Source: an uncultured Armatimonadia bacterium
GTDB taxonomy: Bacteria; Armatimonadota; Zipacnadia; CAZGSV01
Length of the DNA: 64,000 bases
Direction: 5' to 3'
Assembly (NCBI GenBank): GCA_964528605.1
Contig: CAZGSV010000002.1
Coordinates: forward strand, 14,563-78,562
Under the pieces are notes generated by a model. It had not been told where the DNA came from. It did not search any database and saw nothing but the letters and a program-made list of their open reading frames with translations. Both the position numbers and the translations under genes were made by a program. Below, piece by piece: positions 2-53,213 of this stretch (position 1 is its first letter; each line of letters opens with the position of its first letter).

Positions 2-1939
2 GTCTACACCGAGCCGCAGACTTTCTGGTTCCCGCTCGCGCCCGAGATACCGCGGACCTACGAGGCGTGCATGCAGGAGTTGGCCCGCCTCGAGCGCGAG
101 GGCAATCACGTTGAGAAGCGGCGCGCCCTCGCCACGCGCACCTCGGCCATCTTCGACCGCGACGGCAACTCCTTCGTCACCACCCACGACGCGCCTTGGT
201 GCAACGGCGGTGTCTTCGGCCTCAACCCCGACCCGGAGGTTCCCGGCGTTCTGCCGGGCGCCCCGTCGGGCTGCCCGGGCATCAACCAGTACGACGTGGA
301 CTGGGAGCAAGTGTGGTCCGGCTTCGAGCGCGCCGCTCGTGGCGGTATCCCCGGCTGGAACCCATACGGCGACGGAGCGGCGCCCGATGTCAACATGAAG
401 CACGGCGGCGAGCAGTCCGCGCGCTGCTTCTCAGCCGAGCCCGGTGGCAACGCCGGCCTCTCGCGGACCGTGTTTCTGAATCAGACGGAGGCGCGGGCGC
501 TCCACTTCTCCGGCTGGAGCCGCGCCGAGAACGTGACCGGGCAAGCGGACGCGGACTACTCCCTCTACCTTGACCTCGCCTACGCCGATGGCGACCACCT
601 GTTCGCGCAGATCGCGCCCTTTGCGGTCGGCACGCACGATTGGGAGTTCGCGGAGTTCACCGTCCACCCGGCAAAGCCCGTGCAGCAGGCGACGCTCAAC
701 GCGCTTTTCCGGCGCAATCACGCGGGCACGGTCTGGTTCGATGACCTGCGGCTCTCCGCCGCCGGCTCGGAGGAGAACCTGCTCGGCAACCCTGGCTTGG
801 AAGCCGCAGACACGCCCCCCCCTGAACTCGACGGCGCCTACATTGACTCCATCGAGGGCTGGAGTGACATTCCCAACTTCCGCCGCCAGCACTTCGCCGC
901 TGCCGACGTGCCCCTCACTTTCGATACCGAGACGAAGCGCCCCCTCATTCTCAATGTCTTCTCCATCTACGAGGGCGTGGGGGCGCTCGCGGACGAGATG
1001 CATAAGCGCGGCAAGCTGATCATGGCGAATGCCGCGCTGTGGCGCTGGCCGTGGTGGGCGCATTACCTCGACGCAATGGGCACCGAGACCAACTGGCTCG
1101 CCGAGGGCGAGTACCGGCCCGACGACCATTCCGTCTTCGCCTATCGCCGCGCGCTCAGTTACCAGAAGCCGTACCTGCTGCTGCAGAACACGGACTACGA
1201 CCGCTTCGGGTCGGAGTTGGTCGAGCGCTACATGCAGCGGTGCCTTTTCTACGGTTGCTTTCCGGGGTTCTTCAGCCACGATGCGGCGACCGATCCTTAC
1301 TTCGGCAATCCGCGCTGGTACAACCGCGACCGCCACCTGTTCGCGAAGTACGTCCCGCTCATTCAGAGGATTCACAAAGCCGGTTGGGAGCCGGTGACCC
1401 ACGCGCGCGTCCTCCGCGCCAGCCCCGTATCCGCTGGCCTTGCCGGCCTCGGTCGCACATCCACGCCTCGTAGGGGCGGGATCTCATCCCGCCCGCGCAC
1501 CCCGACCCGCGGACGCGATAAGATCGCGTCCCTACCACCCGACGCTGGTGAGACCGCCCGTAGGGGCGAGCCGCTGGCTCGCCCGACCGTAGGAGCGGCA
1601 TTCCTGCCGCGAGCCCTCCTCAGGGCCGCGCCCGATGTGGCCCTCGTGTCTTTCCCCGACCAACGCGATCACGTCTTCGTTGAACGCTGGGGCCCTGGCA
1701 GGGGGGGCGACCTCTACTTCACCGTCTTCAACAATTCGCCCCACGCGGTGCAAGCCGAAATCCCGATAGACTTCGCGGCGCTTGGGCTGGCCCGCCCTGG
1801 TCCGGCAGAACCGTCCCCCTACACCTGCACCGAACTCGTTGCCGGCCGCGACCTGCCCCTTGGGCCCTCCCGCAGCGTCACGGTGCCCCTCGACCCCGAC
1901 TCCGCCGCGCTGCTGGACATCAGGCCGACCACGCCATAG
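2..1939 (+). CDS. Hypothetical secreted/carbohydrate-active-like protein with a CBM-like beta-sandwich region and a TIM-barrel-like region. It is 5'-partial, because the reading frame is open from nt 2.
   Basis: The ORF track gives 71..1939. The same frame is open upstream to the window edge (VYTEPQTFWFPLAPEIPRTYEAC then MQEL...). It carries a CBM4/9-like 'WFDDLRLS' signature and a C-terminal beta-sandwich-like tail. A low-complexity R/P/G-rich segment at codons ~455-525 coincides with a repeat cluster. Confidence 0.55.
   Translation, partial: VYTEPQTFWFPLAPEIPRTYEACMQELARLEREGNHVEKRRALATRTSAIFDRDGNSFVTTHDAPWCNGGVFGLNPDPEVPGVLPGAPSGCPGINQYDVDWEQVWSGFERAARGGIPGWNPYGDGAAPDVNMKHGGEQSARCFSAEPGGNAGLSRTVFLNQTEARALHFSGWSRAENVTGQADADYSLYLDLAYADGDHLFAQIAPFAVGTHDWEFAEFTVHPAKPVQQATLNALFRRNHAGTVWFDDLRLSAAGSEENLLGNPGLEAADTPPPELDGAYIDSIEGWSDIPNFRRQHFAAADVPLTFDTETKRPLILNVFSIYEGVGALADEMHKRGKLIMANAALWRWPWWAHYLDAMGTETNWLAEGEYRPDDHSVFAYRRALSYQKPYLLLQNTDYDRFGSELVERYMQRCLFYGCFPGFFSHDAATDPYFGNPRWYNRDRHLFAKYVPLIQRIHKAGWEPVTHARVLRASPVSAGLAGLGRTSTPRRGGISSRPRTPTRGRDKIASLPPDAGETARRGEPLARPTVGAAFLPRALLRAAPDVALVSFPDQRDHVFVERWGPGRGGDLYFTVFNNSPHAVQAEIPIDFAALGLARPGPAEPSPYTCTELVAGRDLPLGPSRSVTVPLDPDSAALLDIRPTTP
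1425..1640. repeat. Cluster of GC-rich palindromic repeat units (TAGGGGC / CCCTAC-flanked hairpins) lying inside the ORF 2..1939 and read in-frame.
   Basis: The hairpins are GGGCGGGAT-CTC-ATCCCGCCC, GGACGCGAT-AAG-ATCGCGTCC followed by CTAC, and GGGCGAGCC-GCTG-GCTCGCCC. The unit GTAGGAGCGGCATTCCTGCCGCGAG (1589..1613) recurs at ~20699, ~51841 and inverted at ~36439. Confidence 0.6.
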
Positions 1940-1979: not shown

Positions 1980-2366
1980 CTAGCCTAGCAGCGCCTTGAT
2001 CTTCTCGATGAGACCCTCGGCGCTGGCGAGGGATTCCTGCATTTCCTCGCGGCGCAGTTCGGACTCCGGCGTGCCCGGATACCGTTCCTCGAGGTAGTAC
2101 TCAGTGCTCTTCTGACACGCCGCTCGGAACTCCTCTAGGGAGGGCTCGTACGCGATGGCGTCGTCAAGGAGCGCCTCGAGATCGTGGATGCGGCGAAGCG
2201 CCCAGCCCTTGGAGAGCAGATAACCCTTCAGGTACTTCTCCATGGACTGCTGGATGTTGAAGCCCGCACCGATGAGGTCCTCGAGTGCGAGCAGGTTGCG
2301 CGCGCGCTGTAAGTCGCCCTCGGCGATGCGGAACCAGTGTGGCGGATGCAGGGAGTCCTTACGCAT
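1980..2366 (-). CDS. HEPN-domain protein, the toxin partner of the MNT nucleotidyltransferase.
   Basis: It has an internal ATG at 2366 (MRKDSLHPPHWFRIAEGDLQRARNLL...). The HEPN-like motif is ...KGWALRRIHDLEALLD. It overlaps the stop of the upstream MNT gene by 8 nt. The N-terminal 37 codons of the 1980..2477 track ORF overlap the MNT coding sequence and are probably not translated. Confidence 0.75.
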   Translation of the reverse strand: MRKDSLHPPHWFRIAEGDLQRARNLLALEDLIGAGFNIQQSMEKYLKGYLLSKGWALRRIHDLEALLDDAIAYEPSLEEFRAACQKSTEYYLEERYPGTPESELRREEMQESLASAEGLIEKIKALLG

Positions 2367-2691
2367 CGTACAGGACCACTCCCCCTCCGATGATCTCCTC
2401 CACGAACCCCTGGCGCACGACCAGTCGCTGCTCCAGTTCGCGCGGGGTGAGGACAATGGCGTCGAACGGCATGCCACGCCGCGCGTCGGAGACCAGACGC
2501 CTGACCGCCACCCTCCGGTCTATGGGCCGTTCGTCCGTCTCCTTGATGATGAGCAAGTCAATGTCGCTGTCGCGGTCGGGCGTGCCGTAAGCGTAGGAAC
2601 CGAAGAGGATGATCTTCTGCGGCTTGTAGGCGGCGACCAGCCTGTCAACGATCGCCTTGATGGTCTCGCCAACCTCGGTATCGGCCAGCAT
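2359..2691 (-). CDS. Minimal nucleotidyltransferase (MNT, Pol-beta superfamily), the antitoxin partner of HEPN.
   Basis: It has the GSYAYGTPDRDSDIDLLI nucleotidyltransferase motif. It is 110 aa and is translationally coupled to the downstream HEPN gene. Confidence 0.85.
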   Translation of the reverse strand: MLADTEVGETIKAIVDRLVAAYKPQKIILFGSYAYGTPDRDSDIDLLIIKETDERPIDRRVAVRRLVSDARRGMPFDAIVLTPRELEQRLVVRQGFVEEIIGGGVVLYDA

Positions 2692-2848
2692 TTGCGTAGC
2701 ACCAGTCGGGTCCCCGCGTGTCAGCGACTCCCACGCCTCGGCCCGGGCGCATTATATGCGCGAGTGGGACGGGGGGACAAGGAGGGGCGGGAGGGCGGAG
2801 GACCAGCAGGCAGTAGGTGGTAGTCGGTGAGGGGCGGCCACGCCGAGT

Positions 2849-2938
2849 CGCCCCTACGGGCGGGCCGTCCTACGGCGGGTAAACCGGGCCGCGCGCCCCT
2901 ACGAGGTGGGCCCCCGACTGGGTCGGGGCCCCTACGGA
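2849..2938. repeat. Intergenic cluster of tandem CCCTACGG-containing GC-rich hairpin units.
   Basis: The sequence reads gcccctacgggcgg / gccgtcctacggcgggtaaaccgg / gcgcccctacgaggtgg / GGGCCCCGAC-TGG-GTCGGGGCCC / cctacggagg. The stop of CDS 2932..4293 falls inside it. Confidence 0.5.
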
Positions 2939-4293
2939 GGAGGCAGGCGGAGGGAGAGGTTGGTTCGGCCGGCGGGGAGGTCGAAGGTTGCGAGCAGGAC
3001 TTGGCCGCCGATCTCCTTCAACGCGACGTTGGCATCGGGTTTCTGTCTGGCTTCGGCCGAGGCGGCGGCCTTGGGGTAGTCGCCCCAGAGGGCGAGGCCG
3101 TAGCGAATGGGCCGCTCGGCGCGGGCGCACACGTTGATGGTCTCAATGCCTGCGGAGGATGACCGCTCAATCTCAAACTCAGGCAGGGATTCCTCAGCGG
3201 CAAACTCAATTGCCTCGGTGTCGGCCGCCGCCAAGTAGTTGCGCGCGGCAATGGGCAAGGGCTGATCGCGATCGAAGAACAATTGACAACGGTCGTCGCA
3301 GTAGACGAGCACCTCGGGCCAAGGGCCGCGCGGATCGGCCGCGACCGGGATGTCTTCAAAGAGCATGTAGGTCGCGGGCTGGCGAAGGAAGCGGCGCTTG
3401 AACTCCGCGACTGCTCGCGGCAGCGACACCGCTTGCACGTCCGGCAGCGAAGCAACGTAAGCGAAGAGCCGCTCCAGCATCGCCGCCGTGCGATCCACTG
3501 TCTCCTGCGTGAAGCCGTTGTGCACGATGCCCGTCTCCATCTCGTGCGCCTCTTGGTGCTGAAGGAAGGGGATGAAGTCGTTCCACGCCGTGTTGCGGCG
3601 GTACTGATCGAGGAAGGCGCGCCAGTAGGAGATATCGGTCGCGGTGCAGAGGCGGTTGTTGTCGGCGTCGTTGGGATCGGTGGAATAGACCTCGGGCTTG
3701 CCGGTGCGGAAGGCCTTGTTGAGGTCGCGCGCGGTCCACTCGCAGGCGACGACCTTGCCTGGGTAGCAGGCGGGCGCCTTGAAGGCCTCGCGGGAGGCGT
3801 AGTAGAAGCCCCAGGGCGCGCCGCGGTCGGTGATGTTGTCCACGTAGGCCTGCTCCCAGCAGTGACCCCACAAGCCATCGAAACCCAAGTCTTCGAGAGC
3901 GGCGACCATGGTGTTGCTGCGGTAGCCTCCGCCGGCGACGGTGACCCTGGCCCAAGGGAGTGCCTCGACCACACCCCGCGCCTCCCGTTCGATCTTCTCG
4001 CGCATGCCCTCGTAGTCGAGCGAGACGAAGTACTCGCGCTCGGCCTGACCGGTGCGGGCTTCGGGCGGCGCGCCCAGGTAGACTCCGACCTCGTCGCCGA
4101 ACTCTTGGTGCCATCCAGTTAGGGGCTCGGCCATCTCGCGCGCCGAGCGAGGGCTGACGAGCCAGGTGACGGGTATCCGGCGCCCGTGTGCCAGTTCGCC
4201 AAGCAGTTCCATGCCCTGGCGCGGCGTGCCGTAGCCCCAGGAACGCTCCACGAAGTAGGCCGAGGACACAAAGGTGTAGAGGAAATCTCCCAT
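2932..4293 (-). CDS. Hypothetical protein, possibly with a polysaccharide-deacetylase or GH57-like fold.
   Basis: It is a 454-aa ORF starting at the internal ATG 4293 (MGDFLYTFVSSAYFVERSWGY...). The 41 codons upstream are low-complexity P/A/G-rich. There are no conflicting genes. Confidence 0.5.
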   Translation of the reverse strand: MGDFLYTFVSSAYFVERSWGYGTPRQGMELLGELAHGRRIPVTWLVSPRSAREMAEPLTGWHQEFGDEVGVYLGAPPEARTGQAEREYFVSLDYEGMREKIEREARGVVEALPWARVTVAGGGYRSNTMVAALEDLGFDGLWGHCWEQAYVDNITDRGAPWGFYYASREAFKAPACYPGKVVACEWTARDLNKAFRTGKPEVYSTDPNDADNNRLCTATDISYWRAFLDQYRRNTAWNDFIPFLQHQEAHEMETGIVHNGFTQETVDRTAAMLERLFAYVASLPDVQAVSLPRAVAEFKRRFLRQPATYMLFEDIPVAADPRGPWPEVLVYCDDRCQLFFDRDQPLPIAARNYLAAADTEAIEFAAEESLPEFEIERSSSAGIETINVCARAERPIRYGLALWGDYPKAAASAEARQKPDANVALKEIGGQVLLATFDLPAGRTNLSLRLPPP

Positions 4294-4518
4294 GGGCGCT
4301 TCCTGCCTTTCTTGGGCGAGCCCCAGTGTAGCGCGGCAGAGCCAACAGCGGAACGGCCGAGCAGGGCCGCTTGGGGGGGCAGGCGGAGCCGCCGATCCGC
4401 CGCCGGGGGGAAGCATTGCGGCCGCAGGCCGCAGGGGTTAAAATCAGGCGCGCGATGGGAGCAGCAAGGAAAGTCATCGCGCGAAGGCGGCGCTGTCAGC
4501 CGCAGGGCGGGTGGTGCG

Positions 4519-13026: not shown

Positions 13027-14277
13027 TCAGAGGCCCAGCCTGCGCTCCACGTCCTCTATCGCCATCGGCTGCGGCAAGGGGACGGTCGCGGCCAAGGCGC
13101 TCAGTTCTTTGAGCCCCGAGCCGGACACCAGGAAGACCACTCTGTCCTGGGCGCCGACCACGCCCTCGCGGCGCAGGCGCATCACCGCAGCCAGCGAGGC
13201 TATGCCGGCAGGCTCCGCAAGAATACCTTCACGCTCCGCGGCAAGTGCTTGTGCGCGGTCTATCTCCTCATCGGAGACCGCCAGCGCCGTGCCGCCGGTC
13301 TCCCGAATCGCGCGCAGCGCGGGCACGGCGTCGAGCGGCTCCGGCACCGCTATGGTTATCGCTTTGGTGCCGATCTCCTTGCAGGGGCGCAGCGCCATCC
13401 CGTCCCCGCCTTTGTCGAATTCCCTCACCAGGGGCGCGCATCCGCTCGCCTGCGCTCCCACGAATCCCGGCATCTTGCCGATCCAGCCCAGCGCCAGCCA
13501 TTCCCCGGCGGCACGCCAGAGCGCCGACAGCAATCCCCCCCCGCCGACCGGCGCCACCATCCAGTCGGGAGCGCCGAATCCTAGACTCTCGAAGACCTCG
13601 TAGGCGATGGTCTTGGGCCCCTCCGCCTGATAGGCGTCCGCCACGCCGGCGGTGGTGGTGTGGTACCAGCCGTTGCGGCGGCTGAGCCTTTCCGCCAGTT
13701 CAATGCACTCGTTGATGTCGCCCTCGACCGAGTAGAGGTGCTCAGTGAACATGCGCGTCTGCGCAAACCGCTCGCGGTAGGCGTAGGCGGGCATGAAGAC
13801 GTAGCACGGGACCCCCGCGCGCGCGCAGAAGGCTGCCGTCGCGGGCCCGGCGTTGCCGTCCGAGGCTATGGCCACCGCCGGCGCTCCCACTTGCCTCGCC
13901 CGAGTCACCCCCATAGCCGCCGAGCGATCCTTGAACGTGCCCGTGGGATTAGTGCCCTCGTTCTTGGCGTAGAGTTCGGCGATCCCTAGATGGGCGCCCA
14001 GCCGCTCGCACCGCTGCAGCGGCGTGCCGCCTTCGCCCAGACTCACGAGTTGCTCCGGCGCCTCCACCGGCAGGAACTCCCAGTAGCGGGCCAGCCCGCA
14101 GCCGCGCCCCCTAAGCGCCTCTCGGCTCATTCCCGCCCGCAGCCGGTCCACCAGCAATTCCAGGGCCAGCGCCTTGCCGCACTTATCGCACACGTAGGGC
14201 GCGGCGGCCGCTGCGCGACCGGAGCCGCAGGCCACGCAGACGAACTGGAACCGTTCCGGGGGGGGCAAGGCTGCCAT
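13027..14277 (-). CDS. thrC: Threonine synthase (PLP-dependent) with an N-terminal C4 zinc-ribbon extension.
   Basis: It has the PLP-lysine motif TGTFKDRSAAMGV and a glycine-rich loop VAPVGGGGLLSA. The N-terminus has CVACGSG...CDKCGK. Confidence 0.85.
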   Translation of the reverse strand: MAALPPPERFQFVCVACGSGRAAAAAPYVCDKCGKALALELLVDRLRAGMSREALRGRGCGLARYWEFLPVEAPEQLVSLGEGGTPLQRCERLGAHLGIAELYAKNEGTNPTGTFKDRSAAMGVTRARQVGAPAVAIASDGNAGPATAAFCARAGVPCYVFMPAYAYRERFAQTRMFTEHLYSVEGDINECIELAERLSRRNGWYHTTTAGVADAYQAEGPKTIAYEVFESLGFGAPDWMVAPVGGGGLLSALWRAAGEWLALGWIGKMPGFVGAQASGCAPLVREFDKGGDGMALRPCKEIGTKAITIAVPEPLDAVPALRAIRETGGTALAVSDEEIDRAQALAAEREGILAEPAGIASLAAVMRLRREGVVGAQDRVVFLVSGSGLKELSALAATVPLPQPMAIEDVERRLGL

Positions 14278-14394
14278 TCCATCACCCGCTCCTGCGGGCC
14301 ATTATGCAGCAAGCGACGCGAAAGCGCACCCCGCCCACCCGATGCTCCTTGTTGCGCCTCTCCCGCGACGATATACTCGCACCGTCTTGGTCAA

Positions 14395-15261
14395 ATGCGC
14401 TCATTCAGTCTGAAGCGGGTCGGTATCGGAGTTCTGGTCGGCATCTCGGCCCTCTCACTCTCGTACGGAATCTGGCAAGGCGTCCATGCCTTGCTCGCCA
14501 GGGAGCCGAATCCACACCAGCAGGCCATGGCGGATTGCCGCGCCGTGGATGCTCAGTCCGGCCCCATCCGCACCTACGGCCAGGACAACGTGACCTACTA
14601 CTGCTGGAAAGTGCAGGCCGCCGAGGGAATCATCCCACCCTCCGGCAACGTTCTGGTGCACTTCGACGCGCACGACGACATCTTCCACCAGGCTGTTACT
14701 CCGCCGGTGAAGTTCCCCGAGCCCGGCACCGAGCGCGAGAAGTGGGCGCAGACCGCTGCCAACCTCAACATCGGCAACTGGCTGCTGGGGGCCATGGGCG
14801 ACGGCGTAGTGAAGCAGACCTTCTGGGTGGTGCCGGTGTGGGAATCACCCAGCTTCCAAGGCACCCAGCACACCGGCAAGGCGGCGCGCCGGGCCGCGAG
14901 AGGCAGGAAGCAAGAGCCACCGCTGCGCATCCTGCGTCTGGGGGAACTCTCCACGGCGGGCATTCCGCGCAACGCCCTGCTCCATTTTGACCTAGACTGG
15001 TTCTCCTGCCTAAAGCGAGTTGACGGCACGTCCTTCGTACCCACGAGCGAGATGATCCGCCAGGAGATCGAGCAGGCCGCCGCGGCCTTGGAGAAGATAG
15101 GTCTGAAGCCTCCCAGCATCACGATCGCGAACTCGCCTGACTACTGCCCCCGCGAGCAATGGCAGATGATCCAGCAGGAGTTGCTGGCCGCGCTGCGGCG
15201 TCACGAGGTCATACCGGAATCCGCCCCGTCCGAGTCTCGCGGTCGGAAAGCGCGCCGCTAG
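14395..15261 (+). CDS. Hypothetical membrane-anchored protein.
   Basis: The internal ATG at 14395 (MRSFSLKRVGIGVLVGISALSLSYGIW) gives a signal/anchor. The upstream part of the track ORF is antisense to thrC. The downstream protein is not low-complexity. Confidence 0.5.
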   Translation: MRSFSLKRVGIGVLVGISALSLSYGIWQGVHALLAREPNPHQQAMADCRAVDAQSGPIRTYGQDNVTYYCWKVQAAEGIIPPSGNVLVHFDAHDDIFHQAVTPPVKFPEPGTEREKWAQTAANLNIGNWLLGAMGDGVVKQTFWVVPVWESPSFQGTQHTGKAARRAARGRKQEPPLRILRLGELSTAGIPRNALLHFDLDWFSCLKRVDGTSFVPTSEMIRQEIEQAAAALEKIGLKPPSITIANSPDYCPREQWQMIQQELLAALRRHEVIPESAPSESRGRKARR

Positions 15262-15346: not shown

Positions 15347-16171
15347 ATGTCAGAGAAACTGCGCCTAGGAGTCTTTGTCGGCCTCGGCAAGGAGCCGGAA
15401 GAAGAACTGCGCAAAGTGCGCGACCTCGGCTTGCCCACCTGCCAGGTCGGCTGCTGGAACCCGGACCTCTACACGGAGGAGGCCGCGAAGGACCTGCTGA
15501 AGGCCTGCGAGAAGTTCACCGTCGAGGTGACCGCCATCTGGACCGGCTATCCGGGCCCCGCCGTCTGGAACTTCGTTGACGGCCCCTCCACCATCGGCCT
15601 CGTCCCGCCGGAGTGGCGCGCCGTGCGCGTGCAGGCGCTCAAGAAGGGCGCCGACTTCGCCAAGCGCGTCGGCGTTCCCGACACCATCACCCACGCTGGT
15701 TTCATCCCGGACAACCCGAAGGACCCCCTCTACGAGGGCACCGTGGCCGCGCTCAAAGAGGTCGCGGAGCATTGCCTTTCGCTGGGCCTGCACTTCTGCT
15801 TCGAGACCGGGCAAGAAACGCCGGTTACGCTGCTGCGCGTCTTCGAGGACATCGGCACCGGCAACCTCGGCGTCAATCTCGACCCGGCCAACTTGCTCAT
15901 GTACGGCAAGGCGAACCCCGTTGACGCGCTGGACCTCATCGGCAAGTACGTGCGCGGCGTGCACGCCAAAGACGGCGAGTACCCAACGAACGGACGCGAA
16001 CTGGGCCACGAGCGCCCGCTCGGCGAGGGGCGCGTTAACTTCCCTGTGCTGGTGCCGAAGTTGAAGTCGCTCGGTTATCACGGCGCGCTCACCGTCGAGC
16101 GCGAGATCAGCGGCGAGCAGCAAGTCCACGACATCAAGAAGGCCATCGAGATACTCGGGCCCTTGTGCTAG
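15347..16171 (+). CDS. Sugar phosphate isomerase/epimerase (xylose isomerase-like TIM barrel).
   Basis: It matches the AP endonuclease 2/xylose isomerase-like TIM family (HAGF, LCFETGQE, NLGVNLDPANL, LTVEREI). Confidence 0.85.
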   Translation: MSEKLRLGVFVGLGKEPEEELRKVRDLGLPTCQVGCWNPDLYTEEAAKDLLKACEKFTVEVTAIWTGYPGPAVWNFVDGPSTIGLVPPEWRAVRVQALKKGADFAKRVGVPDTITHAGFIPDNPKDPLYEGTVAALKEVAEHCLSLGLHFCFETGQETPVTLLRVFEDIGTGNLGVNLDPANLLMYGKANPVDALDLIGKYVRGVHAKDGEYPTNGRELGHERPLGEGRVNFPVLVPKLKSLGYHGALTVEREISGEQQVHDIKKAIEILGPLC

Positions 16172-16248
16172 ATACCAGCCCCCTCACGCCGTAGCGGCGA
16201 GCCGCCGGCTCGCCCGTTCTCCCTCGTGGCCTAGGCATCGCCTAGCCC

Positions 16249-17232
16249 CTACCACCGGGGTCCGCTTTGAGGGAAGAACGAGACCAGGAACTTGGGGAGG
16301 GTTCCCTCGTACACGGCCTCGGCCAGGTGCTCGATGCCCTGTTGGTTGCCCCAGGAGTAGTAGATGATCACCTTGCCCTCATATTCGCACAGGTCCACGT
16401 CGGAGTTGTTGAGGTTCACCGCCTGTGCTATGCGCTCCCGCAGCGCGGGGGAGAGCGAGGGATTGGCGATCGCGCGGTCCTCGTCGGAGAACTGCATCAC
16501 CGGATTCAGGGGGCTGCTCTCCCAGGTCACCAGGTCTTTTGACCTGACGATGTGCGGCTCGTAGGTAGGCCCTGGGCGCGCCTCGAGGTAGATCATGTAG
16601 AAGTAGGGATCTAGGAACCGCAGCGCGGGGCAGGCCGTGTAGCGGTCCTTGGAGAAGACGCGGTCCTCCGGCAGCAACCGCCAGTTCAGCAGGTCGTCCG
16701 ATTCGGCAAAGCGCATCGTGAAAGGCTCCCCGACCACCTCGGGCGGCTCGCCCACCTCGAACGCCATGACGTAGCCCTTCAGCCCCTTGCACACGGAGGT
16801 GTTGTAGTTGGCCCAGCCCGGCAAGATCAGAGCCGGCTGGGTGGCCCAGTTCTCCAGGTCGCTGGACCAGAAGACCTGAATCCGCTCGCCGCCCCATTTG
16901 TCCACCGCGAACACATACAGCCTATCGTCCTCGACGTAGGCGCTGCCCAGGTGGTATCCGACGGCGAACGGGGGTGTGGCGTGACCGCTCTCAACCTCAA
17001 TGAAGCGGAAGTAGGAGTCGCCGGTGTTGTTGGCGTGGTAGTTCTCGCGCACGTATTCGAACCGATAGAGGCGACCGCGGTACACCACCGGCGTGGTCTC
17101 GACCATGTCGCAGTCTATCGTGCCCAGTTTACGGATCACCGGCGGGCGAAGAGGCTGCGCGGAATCCCCATTCGCAGCGCACCGACCAATAGCAGCAACC
17201 AACGTCAGAAGCATCATCGTTCTCATCACCAT
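16249..17232 (-). CDS. Secreted hypothetical protein, possibly a beta-propeller glycoside-hydrolase-like fold.
   Basis: It has a signal peptide MRTMMLLTLVAAIGRCAA and shows no antisense conflict. Assigning it to the GH43/GH32 superfamily is inference from sequence composition only. Confidence 0.5.
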   Translation of the reverse strand: MVMRTMMLLTLVAAIGRCAANGDSAQPLRPPVIRKLGTIDCDMVETTPVVYRGRLYRFEYVRENYHANNTGDSYFRFIEVESGHATPPFAVGYHLGSAYVEDDRLYVFAVDKWGGERIQVFWSSDLENWATQPALILPGWANYNTSVCKGLKGYVMAFEVGEPPEVVGEPFTMRFAESDDLLNWRLLPEDRVFSKDRYTACPALRFLDPYFYMIYLEARPGPTYEPHIVRSKDLVTWESSPLNPVMQFSDEDRAIANPSLSPALRERIAQAVNLNNSDVDLCEYEGKVIIYYSWGNQQGIEHLAEAVYEGTLPKFLVSFFPQSGPRW

Positions 17233-17323
17233 TCGTTTCCCGCCCCGTTCCCCGTCGTAGGGGCGTAACGCAATACGCCCCTGCCCTGCTCCGTGAGGGC
17301 GTGCGGCCCCCTACGTGTCGCTC

Positions 17324-18409
17324 CTATCCGTACTGCGCGACCAACTCGCTTATCCGGCGCAGCCGCTCGACCTCGGCGTCGGGAGGCGTGTTGTCGCCCA
17401 GGCCGATGACCACGCGCCCGGCTGCCTTGGCCATCTCCACGGTCTTCACGACGAAGTCCTCGAACTCCTGCTGCGTGGCCCCGTGGCAGAGCAGCGACGC
17501 CGGTATTGCCCCCTGAATCTTGATGTGGGGCGCGAGCGTCTCCAACGCCTGCTCCAGGCTCACGTCGCCCATGGGCTGCGGCGTGAAGGCCTCGATGATG
17601 TCAATCTCGGAGTCGTTTATCAGCGGCAGCAGCGGCTTGACGAAGCCGTCGAAGTGATACTGGTGCAACTTGCCGCGCGCGTGCAGGATGCGCCCGATCT
17701 CCTGAAAGGCCTCGAGCGCGTAGCGCTTGTACGACTCCGGCCCGATGACCTGCGCGTCCATGTTGCCGCCGGAGCAGACGACCTCGGCCGGGCCTTCCGC
17801 CGCGCAGCGGGCAACCCTGAGCGAGCGCTCATGCTCGGCGTGGAGGTAAGCCTCCAGTTGCTGGCGGTAGTCGGCCAGGGCATACGACAAGCCCACGACC
17901 CCCAGCGAGTACCAAGCCTGCATGATGGGGCAGGCGCTGAGCGTCGTGAGCGCAATGCCACCTTCCCCGACCGCCTTCTCCGCCTCCAAGAAGGACTCGC
18001 CATTCGGCTCGTAGTGAGAGGCCTCGGCGATGTAGGTGGCGACGCGCAGATCGCGAGGCCCCTTGACGAGAAACTCGACCCGCATGCGCGCCTGCGTGAA
18101 GTCGTGGCAGATGCGGTGCACCTCGCGCAGGGAGCCCACCGGCGTTTCGATGATAGTGATGACTTCCTCGCCGATCTCCTCGGTGCGCGATCTCACCTCA
18201 TTGGGCAGGCCCCGACACACCCCCGCTCTCTGCCACAGGCCGCAGCCGAGGTCCCGCTGGATGTCGTGCAACGGCCAGTCCCGGTACTTGGCGGGTATGG
18301 TGCCGCGAGCGCGGTTGACACCGTACCAGTGGTCCATGTTCGCCAGCCAAGGAACGTGGTCGGCGGGCCGGCCGCGGAAGATGGCGAAAACTCTCTCCTT
18401 GGTCGTCAT
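17324..18409 (-). CDS. Uroporphyrinogen decarboxylase (URO-D) family protein, MtaA/CmuA-like.
   Basis: The internal ATG at 18409 (MTTKERVFAIFRGRPADHVPW...) is typical of the URO-D family N-terminus. The product is 362 aa. Confidence 0.7.
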   Translation of the reverse strand: MTTKERVFAIFRGRPADHVPWLANMDHWYGVNRARGTIPAKYRDWPLHDIQRDLGCGLWQRAGVCRGLPNEVRSRTEEIGEEVITIIETPVGSLREVHRICHDFTQARMRVEFLVKGPRDLRVATYIAEASHYEPNGESFLEAEKAVGEGGIALTTLSACPIMQAWYSLGVVGLSYALADYRQQLEAYLHAEHERSLRVARCAAEGPAEVVCSGGNMDAQVIGPESYKRYALEAFQEIGRILHARGKLHQYHFDGFVKPLLPLINDSEIDIIEAFTPQPMGDVSLEQALETLAPHIKIQGAIPASLLCHGATQQEFEDFVVKTVEMAKAAGRVVIGLGDNTPPDAEVERLRRISELVAQYG

Positions 18410-18639
18410 AGGCGCCGATTCTAACCGGCCAAGTCCCGCCTCGCCACTCCTCACCGCCGACTGGCGACTGGCCGCTACCCCTATTGAGTCAGCGCGGCTA
18501 GCGCCCTATACTTGTGGTGGCCGTGCTAGACGGGGAATCGGCGACTCCCTGCCCCGCCTTTGGCGGGGAACCCGAGCGCCCAGCGGGGTCGAATTCCCGA
18601 CCGAGGGGCGAGCCGGTCAGGTCTGACTGAGGCAAGTGG

Positions 18640-18755
18640 CGTTGATGGCTGGGTCCTGCGCAACGAGCGCTCGCGAACCCCGTCAGGTCCGGAAGGAAGC
18701 AGCGGTAAGTGAGAATGCTCGTGTGCCGCAGGGGCGCCTGGCCGGAGCCAACTGC
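18640..18755 (+). ncRNA. ffs: Signal recognition particle RNA (4.5S/ffs, small bacterial type).
   Basis: The universally conserved domain IV motif GUCAGGUCCGGAAGGAAGCAGC is at 18682..18703, followed by GUGUGCCG. The 5' end (gttgatggctgggtcctgcgc) and 3' end (gcgcctggccggagccaac) can pair as helix 5. The length of ~115 nt matches E. coli 4.5S RNA. Confidence 0.6.
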
Positions 18756-20232: not shown

Positions 20233-20318
20233 CCACCCAGACGCACCGGCGTCTAGTGCGCACCTTGGCATTGCTCTCACTTGTAGGAGCACGCTCCCGC
20301 GTGCGACCGCGCCAGCGC

Positions 20319-20347
20319 GGAGAGGTGTCCGAGTTGGTCTAAGGAAC
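20319..20347 (+). pseudogene. 5' fragment of a tRNA-Ser gene (acceptor 5' strand plus D-arm only), followed by unrelated repeat-family sequence.
   Basis: GGAGAGGTGTCCGAGTTGGTCTAAGGAAC is identical to the first 29 nt of the intact tRNA-Ser(GGA) 94 nt downstream. It then diverges into the hairpin CCCCGCC-TCT-GGCGGGG followed by TAGG. Confidence 0.5.
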
Positions 20348-20412
20348 CCCGCCTCTGGCGGGGTAGGCGGGCCAGCCGAAGAGAACGCCGCATCGCGAGG
20401 TGTCGAGTCAGC

Positions 20413-20525: not shown

Positions 20526-20600
20526 ATGTGCACTTCCCAGCAACGCTGGTTCGTCTACATCCTGCGCAGCACCAAGACCGGGCGGTACTACGTTCTCGGC
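20526..20600 (+). pseudogene. Remnant of a GIY-YIG nuclease (YhbQ/UPF0213-like) gene, truncated after ~25 codons by repeat-family sequence.
   Basis: MCTSQQRWFVYILRSTKTGRYYVLG matches the GIY-YIG N-terminal block (fVYILrc.dGslYvG). The expected TxDLxRRLxEH block is replaced by the translation of the CGGGCCGATTAAGAATCGGCCC repeat. Confidence 0.5.
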
Positions 20601-20730
20601 GCCTGGCGGCGTCGCGGGCCGATTAAGAATCGGCCCCTACGTCGCCGGGTCGGCGGGGGGTTCCTACAATGGGCGAGGCGGCGGGTCGCCGGGTTTCCTG
20701 TAGGAGCGGCATTCCTGCCGCGAAGCGACG
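20590..20730. repeat. Composite of GC-rich palindromic repeat-family units (motif CGCGGGCCGATTAAGAATCGGCCCCTACG plus CTGTAGGAGCGGCATTCCTGCCGCGA).
   Basis: The 9-bp-stem hairpin GGGCCGATT-AAG-AATCGGCCC followed by CTACG is nearly identical at ~23631..23660 with similar flanks. The second unit matches 1589..1613. Confidence 0.55.
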
Positions 20731-23609: not shown

Positions 23610-23720
23610 CTCTCGGCACCTCTCAGTGCCGCGGGCCGATTAAGAATCGGCCCCTACGCCGCCCCGCCAACGGCGGGCCGGTAAGAGGGCCGGTCATCAA
23701 CCCGCCCGCTACTCCGGCTG
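23610..23720. repeat. Repeat-family units within a 660-bp intergenic region.
   Basis: gccgcgggccgattaagaatcggcccctacgccgccccgcc is a near copy of the 20611 unit. GGGTAAACCCGGACGCTA (in reverse at ~23745) matches the GGGTAAACCGCGACGCTACC motif at 48551 and 49836. Confidence 0.5.
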
Positions 23721-24109
23721 GCGCAATCCCTGCCACCCCTCGGTAGCGTCCGGGTTTACCCTCTCTGTTGAGAAGGTGCTACAGGAGAAGCACGCCCGGC
23801 ACGATAGCACCGAAATGTAGCGCCCGGACTCTGTGCCAGGCGCAGAATGTCCGGCAGGGACGCCCTCCTCCGGCGGGCAAGCCGGACGCTACAACCCAAA
23901 GCGGGGGTTGGGAGTGCTTTCAACAGAGCAGGATTACCCCCGACGTGCCATCCCTAATGCGTCCGGCGTAAAGCCGGACCCTGCCGCGAGGGCGGAATGG
24001 GAGGCGTGTCAAACTGGTTACTGCCCCTGGCTTCGCGGGCGGCCGTGATTGACGCTAGACGGCGGCGGGAGTATTGATTCCCCCGAGGAGCACAAAGGAG
24101 GCTTGGGCC

Positions 24110-25834: not shown

Positions 25835-26509
25835 CTACGACGGCGGTCCCGCCTTGGGCGGGGGCCGGCGGCGCAGCAGTTCGTAGGCAAGGAAGCCGAA
25901 CAGACACACCGCCCCCCCTATCACCAGGAACAGGTGCGAGGCGGGGTACTTCTGCCAGACGTGGATCAGCCGCTGCGATAGAAAGAGGGCGATCACGTTG
26001 AAGATGAAGGACCCGAGCGCGGTCAGCCACACGAAGGGGCCGAGCGGGAACGCCGCGAACCCCGCGACGAAGGACGACCAAGGCCGGACGTAGCCGATGA
26101 AACGCGTGGCGAAGATGGTGGCGGCGCCGTAGCGGCCGTACCAGCGGACCAGCCGATCGTGCGTTTCCGCGAAACGGCCTCCTTTGGCAAGCCTGCGGCG
26201 CACCCAGGCATCGCCGCGCCGGCCGATGACATAGGCGGTCACGCTGCCGGCCAAGTGGCCGACAGTCAGCGCAGCGAGGACGATCAGCGTGCCGTACCCT
26301 CGACCGGCCGCGATGGAGACCGCCGCCAGGTAGCCCAGTTCCGTGGGCAGCGGTATGCCGACGTTCTCGATGAACATGGAGGCGGCGATTCCGGCGAGGC
26401 CGTATCGGCGGAACAGCTCATAAAGGGCAACCGCCGCGTGCTCGATCACAGTGAGACAGTCCGCGGCTGAGGCTGGGCTCGCACGGCTAGTTGCCCGCCC
26501 CGCCTCCAA
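25835..26509 (-). CDS. DedA/SNARE-associated family membrane protein.
   Basis: It has the FIENVGIPLPTE...GRGYG...RFIGYVRPWSSFVAG pattern of DedA proteins. The exact start is uncertain. Confidence 0.7.
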   Translation of the reverse strand: MEAGRATSRASPASAADCLTVIEHAAVALYELFRRYGLAGIAASMFIENVGIPLPTELGYLAAVSIAAGRGYGTLIVLAALTVGHLAGSVTAYVIGRRGDAWVRRRLAKGGRFAETHDRLVRWYGRYGAATIFATRFIGYVRPWSSFVAGFAAFPLGPFVWLTALGSFIFNVIALFLSQRLIHVWQKYPASHLFLVIGGAVCLFGFLAYELLRRRPPPKAGPPS

Positions 26510-33311: not shown

Positions 33312-33392
33312 GGGAGCAGGCGCCCGGACCGAGGACCCGTAGGGAGGAGCGGTGCCGGTGCGGAGAGTGACGTCGCTGGTTGGGAGGTTGGT

Positions 33393-36137: not shown

Positions 36138-36426
36138 GGCTACTCACCTCGCGGAGAGCATTCCTCCCGCACTCGCGAGCGGGTACTGAGGTGAGGGCAG
36201 CCGGTCGGAACGCCCCACCAACTCCATGGGCCGTGCATCAGACCAGGGAGCCAGCGACATGGAACCACCCTTCTCTGCGGCATCTTAGCGGAACACCTTC
36301 AGGTCCGCCAGAGGACCGCCCACGGGAGAACGGCGGCTGGGGGGCCAACTCTTGCGGCTCCCCGCCTCTGGCGGGGCGGCCAGGGCTGGCGCCCAGGCCC
36401 TACGATCACGACGGGCGGCGGCGCCG

Positions 36427-36465
36427 ATTCGCGGGCTGTCGCGGCAGGAATGCCGCTCCTACAGG
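36427..36465. repeat. Inverted copy of the GTAGGAGCGGCATTCCTGCCGCGA repeat unit.
   Basis: tcgcggcaggaatgccgctcctacagg is the reverse complement of the units at 1589 and 20699. Nearby hairpins are CCCCGCC-TCT-GGCGGGG (36359) and GGCGACTCG-CC-GAGTCGTCC. Confidence 0.55.
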
Positions 36466-36568
36466 ACACGCGGCGACTCGCCGAGTCGTCCCTGCGGTGA
36501 GGCCGCGCGGCTGACATCAGGTTCGCCGCCGCGCCTGGGGTGTGATACGCTCATGCTCGTGAAAAGGG

Positions 36569-45072: not shown

Positions 45073-45600
45073 ATGCCAGTGTTGGAGGCTATTCAGAAGC
45101 GGTACAGCGTGCGCGCGTATCAGGACCGTCCGGTTGAGCCCGAGAAACTGGAGCGGATCATGGAGGCGGCCCGCCTCGCGCCCTCGGCGGGCAACAGGCA
45201 GGATTGGCGTTTCATCATCGTGCAGGACCACGCTAGGCGGCAGGCCCTGATGCGCGCGGCCAAGGGACAGGCGTTCGTGGGCCAGGCGCCGGTGGTGATC
45301 GCGGCGTGCGCGGAGGGCCCTGACCACGTGATGACCTGCGGCCAGTCCATGCACGCGATTGACGTTGCCATTGCTTTGGAGCACCTCGCCCTGCAGGCGA
45401 CGGCGGAAGGCTTGGGGACGTGCTGGGTGGGCGCCTTCGACGAGGCCGAGGCGAAGGCGGTCCTCAACGTGCCGGCGGACTCGCGGGTAGTGCAGTTGAT
45501 GCCGCTGGGCTACCCGGCGGACGAGGCGCGCCCCAAGAGCCGCAAGGAACTCAAAGAGATCGTGATGTACGAGGCCTGGGGCGTCCACACGGCACCGTAG
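45073..45600 (+). CDS. Nitroreductase family protein.
   Basis: It has the RYSVRAYQDRPVEPEKLERIMEAARLAPSAGNRQDWRFIIV nitroreductase signature. Confidence 0.85.
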   Translation: MPVLEAIQKRYSVRAYQDRPVEPEKLERIMEAARLAPSAGNRQDWRFIIVQDHARRQALMRAAKGQAFVGQAPVVIAACAEGPDHVMTCGQSMHAIDVAIALEHLALQATAEGLGTCWVGAFDEAEAKAVLNVPADSRVVQLMPLGYPADEARPKSRKELKEIVMYEAWGVHTAP

Positions 45601-45633
45601 GTCGCGGGGGCCATTCAGCACGCGGTCGATTGT

Positions 45634-47122: not shown

Positions 47123-47287
47123 TTTTGCGGGGTGCTTACCGTAACTCCTGCGCGGATGGTCGGCCTTCTGCGGCAGACGCGCAGTTCTCTACCTGCAACC
47201 GCAAAGAACGATAGAGCAGGCCAAAAGCCTGTGTGCGCCGCGCCAAACCGCCACGCTACCGAGGGATGGAGAGGTTCGGGCCGGCGC

Positions 47288-48487: not shown

Positions 48488-48635
48488 CCCGCCACCTCAC
48501 AGGGCCCGGGCCCGCAGGTTAGGTCGCGGCAGCCGCGTCGTGGGTAAACCGCGACGCTACCGGGCGTTGGCAACACATCCGCGTCGTGGGTGCACCACGA
48601 CGCTACCGCCAGGATGGAAAGGTTCGGGCCAGCGC

Positions 48636-49790: not shown

Positions 49791-49990
49791 TCTCTCACCT
49801 CATGATTCTCGGTTCGGTGGTTTGCCGTCGCGGGTAAACCGCGACGCTACCGACATGCGCGAGCGGATGCTGCACAAACTCCTTACAGGCGGACGCAGAA
49901 CAGCCACACCGAATCACGCACGAGGCGAATGGCTGCCTCCCTCGGTGCTCCGCGCCACAAGCCAGAGCGGGTACGCCGGGGTCAGACGAC

Positions 49991-50206: not shown

Positions 50207-50221
50207 GGCTCGCTCACTTCC

Positions 50222-51678: not shown

Positions 51679-51917
51679 CTTGTCACCTCGTAGTGCGGAT
51701 GATTGCGGCCGACGGGCGGCACTGTAGCGCCGCAGACGGTGTCTTTCAAGGCGGTCGTGGGGATGTATGGCCCGCCCCTACTTCCGCGGCGCCGCCAGGG
51801 GCCGCTGCGCAGGGGCGAGGCGCCTGCCTCACCCGCTGTCCTGTAGGAGCGGCATTCTTGTTCACCCGCCTCAGGAGGGCCCCCAGTTCGCAGCGGCGAG
51901 CCGTGGGCTGGCGCGCG

Positions 51918-53072: not shown

Positions 53073-53213
53073 TTCTCAACCGCACCCCTTCCTCGTTGAC
53101 TGGGGACAGCGTGGGGTCAAGTCTAGCGAGGAGGCGGCGGCGGTTCAACGGCAACCCGCGCTCGGCCCCGATAGATCGCGCCAGGCATGGCGCTCCTACG
53201 CGGATGGGCGGGC

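What the first reader, a model, noticed from the sequence alone, without database searches (positions are those of the whole stretch)
2849..2938. Pervasive family of short TAGG/CCTA-bounded GC-rich hairpin repeats (REP/MITE-like) across the window
Related units recur at 1425..1640, 2849..2938, ~16190..16250, ~17245..17320, ~18535..18625, ~20340..20365, 20590..20730, 23610..23720, ~25835..25860, ~33330..33370, 36355..36500, ~45596..45612 and 51841..51880. The shared architecture is CGTAGG or CCTACG immediately flanking a 7-10-bp-stem hairpin. Examples are GGGCCGATT-AAG-AATCGGCCC, GGACGCGAT-AAG-ATCGCGTCC, CCCCGCC-TCT-GGCGGGG, GGGCGAGCC-GCTG-GCTCGCCC and GCGAGCC-GCCG-GCTCGCC. Two longer units (CTGTAGGAGCGGCATTCCTGCCGCGA, and CGCGGGCCGATTAAGAATCGGCCCCTACGYCGCC) are near-identical at distant sites. 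They occur mostly between convergent genes or in long intergenic regions. They also occur inside or at the ends of genes (see separate findings). No RAYT/IS200-like transposase gene is present in this window. Whether these behave as REPIN-like mobile units, terminators or recombination hot spots is open.
Basis: seen in the sequence. Interest (0 to 1): 0.6.

Follow-up and report, generated by a model that had tools for sequence, protein, structure and literature searches.

The report
GTAG-headed REP hairpin repeats
The short GC-rich hairpins are ordinary members of the well-known bacterial REP/REPIN repeat class (a GTAG tag followed by a palindrome, spread by a RAYT transposase), here in a probable Armatimonadota chromosome, where they still differ between near-identical strains.

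Summary
The window holds about 25 short hairpins carrying a 5' GTAG tag. GTAG is the most enriched 4-mer directly 5' of 8-bp hairpins (13 of 434 occurrences, 9.4-fold). GTAGGGGC occurs 11 times against 2.2 expected.

The units fall into three families:
- A: GTAG-GGGC-N5-loop3-N5'-GCCC.
- B: GTAG-GA-GCGGCA-TTCC-TGCCGC-GA.
- C: GTAG-CGTCGCGG-TTTAC-CCGCGACG.

Four or five listed sites are not members: an SRP RNA, a pseudo-tRNA-Ser, and two or three weak GTAGG sites. The flagged span itself has one intact hairpin plus three degenerate heads.

No RAYT gene lies in the window. Elsewhere, RAYT genes that pass NCBI's curated cut-off are flanked by the exact family A 25-mer (metagenome contigs L184/L192) and the exact family B 22-mer (L017, L061).

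Contigs from strains 97-99% identical to the window differ from it at four REP sites, including the flagged cluster. A whole REP doublet at 16191-16252 is present only in the window.

TAG-stop donation, an in-frame 82-aa REP cluster inside a gene, and several families per genome are all already described for GTAG REPs. Verdict: a new member of a known kind, of low to moderate interest.

The parts
1470..1494 (+). Family A REP: GTAG GGGCGGGAT ctc ATCCCGCCC. Forms a head-out doublet with 1511-1535. Lies inside ORF 71-1939.
   Evidence: in-frame insertion relative to homologs
1511..1535 (-). Family A REP: GTAG GGACGCGAT ctt ATCGCGTCC.
1560..1584 (+). Family A REP: GTAG GGGCGAGCC gct GGCTCGCCC.
1589..1612 (+). 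Family B REP: GTAG-GA-GCGGCA-TTCC-TGCCGC-GA.
2909..2935 (-). Family A REP: GTAG GGGCCCCGAC cca GTCGGGGGCC, one mismatch. Its TAG (2934-2932) is the stop codon of gene 2932-4416(-).
2841..2902 (-). Three degenerate or truncated GTAGG-headed units, with heads at 2902, 2873 and 2857. The 2857 unit is the 5' arm and loop of GTAGGGGCGACTCGGCGAGTCGCCC, which is intact in related strains. The window lacks 75 bp here.
16191..16214 (+). Family A REP: GTAG CGGCGAGCC gcc GGCTCGCC. Left half of a head-out doublet that is absent from four related strains.
16228..16252 (-). Family A REP: GTAG GGGCTAGGC gat GCCTAGGCC. Right half of the doublet. Its TAG is the stop codon of gene 16249-17232(-).
17257..17314 (.). 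Head-out doublet: an intact family A unit at 17257-17282(+) and a degenerate unit headed at 17314(-). Conserved in related strains.
20283..20306 (+). Family B variant with compensated stem: GTAG-GA-GCACGC-TCCC-GCGTGC-GA. Not present in relative L196.
20616..20640 (-). Family A REP 'A8': GTAG GGGCCGATT ctt AATCGGCCC. A degenerate GTAGG unit follows at 20641-20667(-).
20700..20723 (+). Family B REP, exact 24-mer.
23633..23657 (-). Family A REP 'A8', second exact copy. Conserved in L155, L196 and L199.
23743..23767 (+). Family C-like unit with a degenerate 3' arm: GTAG CGTCCGGG TTTAC CCTCTCTG. Coordinates approximate.
   Evidence: (I4)
23865..23983 (-). Two family C-like units: GTAGCGTCCGGC..GCCGGA at 23869-23892, and a GCAG-headed copy around 23958-23983. 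In L155, L196 and L199 a single clean unit replaces them, a 111-bp indel.
36378..36403 (-). Family A-like REP: GTAG GGCCTGGGC gcca GCCCTGGCC, one mismatch.
36439..36462 (-). Family B REP, exact 24-mer. A degenerate GCAG-headed A-type unit lies next to it at about 36466-36497.
   Evidence: (I1, I14)
47236..47259 (-). Degenerate family C unit about 30 nt downstream of paralog 47288-48487(-). Coordinates approximate.
   Evidence: (I4)
48536..48606 (-). Two family C REPs in tandem: GTAG CGTCGCGG tttac CCACGACG, and GTAG CGTCGTGG tgcac CCACGACG. They lie downstream of paralog 48636-49790(-).
   Evidence: (D15)
49826..49850 (-). Family C REP: GTAG CGTCGCGG tttac CCGCGACG.
51843..51860 (+). Truncated family B unit: GTAGGAGCGGCATTCTTG, the 5' half only. 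A degenerate A-type remnant lies at 51880-51915.
   Evidence: D14, D17, I24
53176..53199 (-). Family B variant with compensated stem: GTAG-GA-GCGCCA-TGCC-TGGCGC-GA. It sits 14 nt after the stop of the release-factor gene 53214-54311(-).

Best explanation
These are repetitive extragenic palindromes (REPs) of the GTAG-tagged super-family, partly arranged as inverted head-out doublets (REPINs). At least three sequence families share one chromosome, probably of an Armatimonadota bacterium.

Shown here:
- Each unit is a 5' GTAG followed directly by a 6-9-bp perfect or near-perfect stem and a 3-5-nt loop. Family B has a GA spacer between tag and stem.
- The identical unit sequences flank bona fide RAYT (TnpA-REP, HUH/Y1) genes in other contigs.
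- The units are gained, lost or truncated between strains that are 97-99% identical.

Inferred from published work on E. coli, S. maltophilia and Marinomonas RAYTs (PMC8266576):
- One or more single-copy RAYTs encoded elsewhere in this genome bind the folded single-stranded hairpin.
- They use the GTAG tag to position cleavage at a nearby CT dinucleotide. They then copy or move units on single-stranded DNA.

Once in place the hairpins are passengers that can have side effects. In most cases they lie in sense orientation just 3' of genes, so they could shape mRNA 3' ends. Their TAG supplies the stop codon of two genes. A four-unit cluster is translated as an 82-aa linker inside a glycosidase-like protein.
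For: Enrichment of the GTAG tag next to hairpins.

Shared family A consensus, GTAG-GGGC-N5-YTY-N5'-GCCC-G, across 53 distinct units from the window and 508 kb of metagenome contigs.

Family B layout (GA spacer, 3' GA[C/T]) matches the description of GTAG-1/2 in PMC3733652. Family A layout (perfect stem, 3-nt loop) matches group-3 REPs in PMC8266576.

REPtrons:
- The L184/L192 RAYT is flanked on both sides by doublets that contain the exact A8 25-mer.
- The L125 RAYT is flanked by GTAGGGCG-type units.
- The L017 and L061 RAYTs are flanked by the exact family B 22-mer.
- The L184, L125 and L017 RAYTs exceed the 80-bit NCBIfam NF047646 cut-off, at 98, 96 and 127 bits. These three and the L061 RAYT also hit Pfam Y1_Tnp.

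Dispersal: A8 was found 87 times in at least 62 distinct flanks, and family B 131 times in 131 distinct flanks.

T is the commonest base immediately 5' of GTAG (55-96% for A8, B and one partner variant) and C the commonest before it (47-71% for those three), so the two bases 5' of GTAG most often read CT.

Strain polymorphism at REP sites (2821-2840, 16171-16285, 20236-20318, 23865-23975) accounts for 4 of 8 structural differences in about 27 kb.

TAG-stop donation. In-frame intragenic cluster.
Against: - No RAYT lies in the window or in about 45 kb of related-strain contigs. The rest of the source genome could not be read, so RAYT dependence in this genome is inferred, not shown.
- Most A8-bearing metagenome contigs lack family B, and the window lacks the A8 partner unit. 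The RAYT contigs L184 and L125 therefore probably belong to other organisms.
- Two of the four polymorphisms could be RAYT-independent deletions between or within palindromes.
- Several family C copies sit in DNA duplicated together with paralogous genes, so not every copy reflects transposition.
- The pairing percentage is circular, because the units were selected for pairing.
Confidence: 0.88

Rival explanations
1. The hairpins are host-selected RNA elements: factor-independent terminators or 3'-end mRNA stabilisers. Each would have evolved in place, and the GTAG would simply reflect the common TAG stop codon of this genome rather than a transposase tag.
For: - Most units lie in sense orientation just downstream of genes.
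- TAG is the commonest stop codon in my gene calls (27 of 47), and 10 of those stops are in GTAGG context.
Against: - No T-run follows any unit.
- Units also occur in divergent promoter regions (23633, 36378-36462), antisense to the nearest gene (17257, 51843), and inside a coding sequence (1470-1612).
- Identical 22-25-mers recur at dozens of unrelated loci and in unrelated organisms.
- The same units flank RAYT genes.
- Independent in-place evolution cannot produce exact 25-mers repeatedly.
Confidence: 0.05
2. They are miniature inverted-repeat transposable elements (MITEs) derived from a DDE-type insertion sequence.
For: They are short, dispersed, palindromic and non-coding, and presence/absence polymorphism exists.
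Against: - Units are only 24-25 nt.
- No terminal inverted repeats separate from the hairpin, and no target-site duplications at the polymorphic sites.
- The genes found between copies are HUH/Y1 RAYTs, not DDE transposases.
Confidence: 0.02
3. They are chance GC-rich palindromes in a 66% GC genome with no shared origin.
For: - My back-of-envelope estimate is that about one exact 17-mer match is expected by chance in a 64-kb, 66% GC window, so the two copies of CCCCGCCTCTGGCGGGG are not significant.
- The flagged span as a whole folds no better than shuffles.
Against: All enrichment tests, the shared consensus, and the exact multi-copy 22-25-mers.
Confidence: 0.01

Closest known systems
GTAG-tagged REP super-family (Di Nocera, De Gregorio & Rocco 2013, PMC3733652), in particular the short perfect-palindrome REPs of Stenotrophomonas maltophilia (SMAG; group-3 REPtron Sm of Corneloup et al. 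2021, PMC8266576)
   Same: - Family A is GTAG + perfect stem + 3-nt loop, with no spacer. REPSm is 23 nt with an 8-bp stem; family A is 25 nt with a 9-bp stem.
- There are sub-families with complementary stem changes.
- Units occur as singles, head-out dimers and clusters, and several families coexist in one genome.
- TAG of the tag is used as a stop codon.
- Intragenic clusters encode up to 82 aa.
- RAYT genes are flanked by the units.
   Different: - The stem sequences differ from any family consensus I could read (the paper's figures are not held).
- The host appears to be Armatimonadota, a phylum not among those listed in 2013.
- Inner-stem diversity is high: 8 different inner stems among 10 units in 64 kb.
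GTAG-1/GTAG-2 REPs of Pseudomonas, Xanthomonas, Thauera and Thioalkalivibrio (PMC3733652)
   Same: Family B has the two features said to set GTAG-1/2 apart. These are an unpaired dinucleotide (GA) between GTAG and the stem, and a conserved 3-nt motif (GA[C/T]) after the stem.
   Different: - I could not compare the exact sequence with the published consensus.
- The identical 22-mer occurs in MAGs labelled Geobacter/Geomonas, Verrucomicrobiota, Acidobacteriota, Armatimonadota, Gammaproteobacteria and Latescibacterota.
- The two RAYTs flanked by it are only 33% identical to each other.
REPINs (Bertels & Rainey 2011, PMC3116915)
   Same: - Head-out inverted doublets with 13-16-nt spacers occur at 1470/1535, 16191/16252 and 17257/17314.
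- In L184 the RAYT is flanked by tandem doublets (A8 + partner) with a 13-nt spacer.
   Different: - In the window most units are singletons or mixed-family clusters.
- The polymorphic doublet at 16191-16252 looks like two separate unit gains around a retained host 8-mer rather than one doublet insertion.
E. coli REP/BIME with RayT (YafM)
   Same: GTAG tag, intergenic hairpins, and a single-copy HUH/Y1 partner. The RAYTs found here align with E. coli RayT through the HUH and Y motifs.
   Different: E. coli REPs are longer, with a bulged imperfect stem (group 2). The units here are short perfect palindromes (group-3-like). Protein identity to RayT is only 20-29%.

Membership tests
GTAG-tagged REP super-family | Conserved GTAG tetranucleotide immediately 5' of the palindrome | tested here: met
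   GTAG is the most enriched 4-mer 5' of 8-bp hairpins: 13 of 434 occurrences, 9.4-fold. It is invariant in 53 distinct family A-type units, though those were collected by a GTAG seed.
GTAG-tagged REP super-family | Short (20-40 nt) palindromic unit able to form a stem-loop | tested here: met
   Units are 24-27 nt, with stems of 6-10 bp and loops of 3-6 nt. The cluster 1460-1620 folds at z = -3.4.
GTAG-tagged REP super-family | High copy number, dispersed over the genome, mostly intergenic | tested here: inconclusive
   There are about 25 units in 64 kb, all but one cluster intergenic. The exact units occur at at least 62 (A8) and 131 (B) distinct sites in public contigs. The rest of the source genome could not be read.
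GTAG-tagged REP super-family | A cognate RAYT gene flanked by the same units (REPtron) | tested here: inconclusive
   Met in other contigs: L184/L192 for the exact A8 unit, L017 and L061 for the exact B unit, and L125 for a related A-type unit. Not found in the window or in 45 kb of sister-strain DNA.
GTAG-tagged REP super-family | RAYT binds and cleaves the single-stranded unit in a GTAG-dependent way | not testable with these tools
   This needs biochemistry. The only indirect hint is that the two bases 5' of GTAG most often read CT.
REPIN | Two REPs in inverted orientation separated by a short spacer, replicating as one unit | tested here: inconclusive
   Three head-out doublets lie in the window, and clear doublets occur in L184, L133 and L146. 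Most window units are single, and the polymorphic doublet does not look like a single insertion event.
MITE (DDE-derived) | Terminal inverted repeats plus target-site duplication | tested here: not met
   No target-site duplication or separate terminal inverted repeats at the polymorphic sites.
Intrinsic (Rho-independent) terminator | GC-rich hairpin followed by a T-run | tested here: not met
   The 10 nt after every unit contain no run of 4 or more T (sequences).
Rfam-curated structured RNA | Match to a curated covariance model | tested here: not met
Only an SRP RNA and two tRNAs reach gathering scores in the window.

The most novel reading that the evidence does not exclude
Exact REP units are shared by very different hosts. 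The family A 25-mer occurs as a GC-rich doublet inside 39-42% GC contigs as well as in 67-70% GC contigs from related metagenome samples. The family B 22-mer occurs in MAGs of at least five phyla, next to RAYTs that are only 33% identical to each other. The most novel reading is that REP/RAYT systems, usually described as vertically inherited single-lineage residents, spread horizontally among co-occurring bacteria. The alternative is that the unit sequence is conserved far more strongly than its transposase. Either way, the window would record an active, multi-family invasion of an Armatimonadota lineage.
Probability: 0.3. Interest if true: 0.5.

Novelty: new member of a known kind. Interest (0 to 1): 0.28.

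Why it matters
The finding confirms a textbook class of bacterial repeat in a poorly studied phylum. It also gives a clean natural example of turnover. Between strains 97-99% identical, REP units account for half of all structural differences seen. One gain rewrites the C-terminus and stop codon of a protein. A four-unit cluster is carried in frame inside an enzyme gene.

For annotation, the practical points are these:
- The units create spurious small ORFs, for example 36299-36517.
- They break metagenome assemblies: contigs L200 and L201 end in the flagged cluster.
- They should not be mistaken for terminators or new RNA genes.

The sharing of exact units across phyla is worth a dedicated survey. 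Otherwise nothing here changes what is known about REPs.

Tried and rejected
- Exact-protein look-ups for five window ORFs and for the 100%-identical hit P0121 found nothing. The source assembly (an 89.5-kb NCBI contig) could not be read, so no genome-wide count or RAYT search was possible.
None of the 111 loci is from the window's own lineage.
- The first RAYT search, with E. coli RayT alone and then with 3- and 5-sequence HMMs, found no hit in the window.
- The pairing count on family A is not independent evidence, because units were selected for pairing. I replaced it with the unselected 4-mer test.
- The more distant relative L195 (77% nt identity) has a different gene order and no REPs at the comparable junctions. 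It is too diverged to polarise gains and losses.
- Look-ups of the MNT protein and of P0139 returned only 0.9-1.5-kb contigs that end in the flagged cluster.
- Tandem Repeats Finder found nothing at 46000-47400, although repeat finder shows three 88-bp-spaced copies there.
- One pattern search used the wrong spacer length and was repeated.
- Integron attC sites, CRISPR arrays and DDE MITEs were considered and dropped. There is no regular spacing, no terminal inverted repeats or target-site duplications, and the flanked genes are RAYTs.

Full report
WHAT IS IN THE SEQUENCE

The window is 64-70% GC throughout. It is chromosomal: it carries DnaE, RelA/SpoT, a class-I release factor, two tRNA-Ser genes and a large SRP RNA.

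I searched for GTAG followed within a few bases by a hairpin. This gave 26 sites against 8.6 +/- 3.1 in third-order Markov simulations. Of 42 distinct perfect hairpins with stems of at least 7 bp, 11 carry a GTAG head.

A test that does not pre-select on GTAG is cleaner. Over all 256 4-mers preceding an 8-bp hairpin, GTAG ranks first. It precedes a hairpin in 13 of its 434 occurrences, 9.4-fold over the background rate. The one-base-shifted TAGG and TAGC come next. GTAGGGGC occurs 11 times against 2.24 +/- 1.3 expected. GTAGGAGC-N12-GC occurs 5 times against 0.25 expected. The core observation is therefore real and non-random.

ANATOMY: THREE FAMILIES

Family A is GTAG directly followed by a 9-bp stem whose outer four pairs are GGGC/GCCC. 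The inner five pairs vary, the loop is 3 nt (mostly pyrimidines), and a G follows the hairpin.
- Copies lie at 1470, 1511, 1560, 2909, 16191, 16228, 17257, 20616, 23633 and 36378.
- The same template fits 53 distinct units when 508 kb of metagenome contigs are added.

Family B is GTAG-GA-GCGGCA-TTCC-TGCCGC-GA.
- Exact copies lie at 1589, 20700 and 36439, with a truncated copy at 51843.
- Two variants have both stem arms changed in a compensating way, at 20283 and 53176.

Family C is GTAG-CGTCGCGG-TTTAC-CCGCGACG.
- Copies lie at 48536-48606 and 49826-49850.
- Degenerate or related copies lie at 47236, 23743 and 23865-23983.

Three pairs form head-out inverted doublets with 13-16-nt spacers: 1470/1535, 16191/16252 and 17257/17314.

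WHAT IS NOT PART OF IT

- Site 18535-18625 lies inside the SRP RNA at 18521-18797.
- Site 20340-20365 belongs to a 94-bp pseudo-tRNA unit that repeats the first 29 nt of tRNA-Ser(GGA). Its hairpin precedes the GTAG rather than following it.
- Sites 25835-25860, 33330-33370 and 45596-45612 have GTAGG, often as a stop codon, but no REP-type hairpin next to it.
- The flagged span 2849-2938 has four CCTAC heads in 90 bp. Only 2909-2935 is an intact hairpin, and the span as a whole folds no better than shuffles, z = -0.44.
- By contrast the cluster 1460-1620 folds at z = -3.4.

LINK TO A TRANSPOSASE

No RAYT is encoded in the window.

The exact family B 22-mer was found in at least 111 stretches of GTDB genomes. 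In L017, two B-containing doublets upstream and one B unit downstream flank a 163-aa HUH/Y1 gene. In the Geomonas locus L061, several B copies surround another such gene.

The exact family A 25-mer (A8) was found in 81 metagenome stretches. In L184, which is identical to L192, a 164-aa gene is flanked on both sides by doublets made of A8 and a partner unit, GTAGGGGCCCAATCTYATTGGGCCC. In L125 another such gene is flanked by GTAGGGCG-type units.

The L184, L125 and L017 proteins exceed the curated 80-bit cut-off of NCBIfam NF047646, 'REP-associated tyrosine transposase', at 98, 96 and 127 bits. These three and the L061 protein also hit Pfam Y1_Tnp. This is the classical REPtron arrangement.

These contigs are probably not from the window's organism. 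The A8-selected contigs contain no exact B unit, and the window contains no A8 partner. A RAYT in the source genome is therefore inferred, not shown.

Protein searches found 100%-identical proteins on an 89.5-kb NCBI contig that could not be read. Their 90% clusters led to contigs from five other samples that are 97-99% identical to window positions 1-27416: L155, L196-L199 and L202-L205.

Eight structural differences are visible. Four sit on REP units:
1. At the flagged cluster the relatives carry 95 bp where the window has 20 bp. The extra DNA completes a perfect unit, GTAGGGGCGACTCGGCGAGTCGCCC, that is truncated in the window, and adds a longer composite palindrome.
2. The whole doublet at 16191-16252 is present only in the window. 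All four relatives have 46 unrelated bp instead of 115. In the window the right-hand unit supplies a new stop codon and C-terminus to gene 16249-17232.
3. The family B variant at 20283 is absent from L196.
4. Window positions 23865-23975 hold two family C-like units, where L155, L196 and L199 hold one clean unit.

The other four differences do not involve GTAG units:
- a microsatellite-like repeat at 18452-18472;
- a 925-bp loss of a BglII-like endonuclease region next to the methylase;
- copy number of the pseudo-tRNA unit;
- a 27-bp indel in a convergent spacer.

REP units cover only a few per cent of the DNA, so they are strongly over-represented among the differences. Without an outgroup I cannot polarise gain against loss. 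Differences 1 and 4 could be palindrome-mediated deletions that need no transposase.

SIDE EFFECTS ON GENES

The cluster at 1425-1640 (three A units and one B unit) lies in frame inside ORF 71-1939. Seven homologs align on both sides and lack about 82 residues there. The closest homolog has a shorter insert at the same point. The sister strains carry the cluster too.

The TAG of the REP head is the stop codon of genes 2932-4416 and 16249-17232.

No unit is followed by a T-run. Units also occur in divergent promoter regions and antisense to the nearest gene. A terminator-only explanation therefore does not fit.

COMPARISON WITH WHAT IS KNOWN

Di Nocera et al. 2013 (PMC3733652) define the GTAG-tagged REP super-family. 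They describe:
- 24 families, and several families per genome, each with its own REPtron;
- sub-families with complementary stem changes;
- head-out dimers and clusters;
- preferential location 3' of genes;
- donation of TAG stops;
- intragenic clusters encoding 43-82 aa.

They single out GTAG-1/2 by an unpaired dinucleotide after GTAG and a conserved 3-nt motif after the stem. That is exactly the family B layout.

Corneloup et al. 2021 (PMC8266576) show that group-3 RAYTs act on short perfect palindromes. Their S. maltophilia example is GTAG + 8 bp + 3 nt. GTAG is needed for cleavage at a nearby CT.

Family A has this layout. The two bases 5' of GTAG most often read CT in A8, B and one partner variant.

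Every feature seen here is thus already described. What is new is the host and the particular sequences. Homologs of two window proteins are labelled Armatimonadota/Armatimonadetes, and Ca. Zipacnadia MAGs carrying family B belong to that phylum. A full-text search found no paper linking RAYTs to Armatimonadetes.

WHAT REMAINS MILDLY SURPRISING

Exact units are shared by very different hosts. A8 doublets sit as GC-rich islands in 39-42% GC contigs. The B 22-mer occurs in MAGs of at least five phyla. The two RAYTs flanked by it are only 33% identical. The 2013 paper already notes families shared by distant organisms, so this is a lead rather than a finding.

VERDICT

- The interpretation as REP-like is supported.
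- The elements are a new member of a known kind.
- Interest is low to moderate.

Noticed in passing
window 20319-20412: A 94-bp pseudo-tRNA unit. Its first 29 nt are identical to the 5' end of tRNA-Ser(GGA) at 20413, and the anticodon arm is replaced by CCCGCCTCTGGCGGG. ARAGORN does not call it. The sister strain L196 has two tandem copies, so copy number varies between strains.
   Followed up: partly
window, all 47 gene calls: TAG is the commonest stop codon in my GC3-based gene calls: 27 TAG, 10 TGA, 10 TAA. This is unusual for a 66% GC genome. Ten TAG stops are in GTAGG context, but only two belong to recognisable REP units. The gene calls are not curated.
   Followed up: partly
window 18834-18866 versus L196 8595-9519: Relatives carry a BglII-like endonuclease gene and a 162-aa ORF next to the N6/N4 DNA methylase. 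At this breakpoint the window has about 31 bp where L196 has about 925 bp, so the methylase at 18994-20052 looks orphaned in this strain.
   Followed up: partly
window 46868-47084 and 47288-53072: Three copies of an AT-rich 41-67-nt motif lie at 88-bp spacing in the lowest-GC part of the window (61%). They sit next to four tandem paralogous genes of 384-399 aa (65-79% nt identity) with no Pfam match. Tandem Repeats Finder did not report the array.
   Followed up: no
window 1980-2691 (-): A HEPN/minimal-nucleotidyltransferase (MNT) gene pair lies immediately downstream of the flagged REP cluster. The short contigs L200 and L201 from run ERR4334732 end inside that cluster, which suggests the repeats break assemblies.
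   Followed up: partly
L061 about 3255-3749 (Geomonas MAG): The RAYT gene flanked by family B units also contains a reverse-oriented B unit in frame inside its own coding sequence. It is translated as RGRNAAPT, within the roughly 12-residue insertion this RAYT shows relative to the other four.
   Followed up: no
L133, L141, L146, L159, L166, L176, L182 (metagenome contigs, 39-42% GC): GC-rich family A doublets, including the exact A8 25-mer, are embedded in AT-rich contigs. In L146 and L182 they abut a truncated RAYT-like C-terminal fragment. The same REP therefore occurs in organisms of very different base composition.
   Followed up: partly
window 15347-18454 versus L195 (GCA_964567035.1, 77% nt identity): In this more distant relative, the orthologs of window 13373-15194 are followed directly by the URO-D-like gene in inverted orientation. 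Genes 15347-17232, which REP doublets bracket in the window, are missing, and no REPs are seen at the junctions.
   Followed up: partly
window 18452-18472 versus L196 9903-9937: A GGCGACTGGC-type short tandem repeat between the URO-D-like gene start and the SRP RNA differs in length between strains.
   Followed up: no
window 18521-18797 (+): A large (Alu-domain-containing) bacterial SRP RNA, 175 bits against Rfam RF01854.
   Followed up: no
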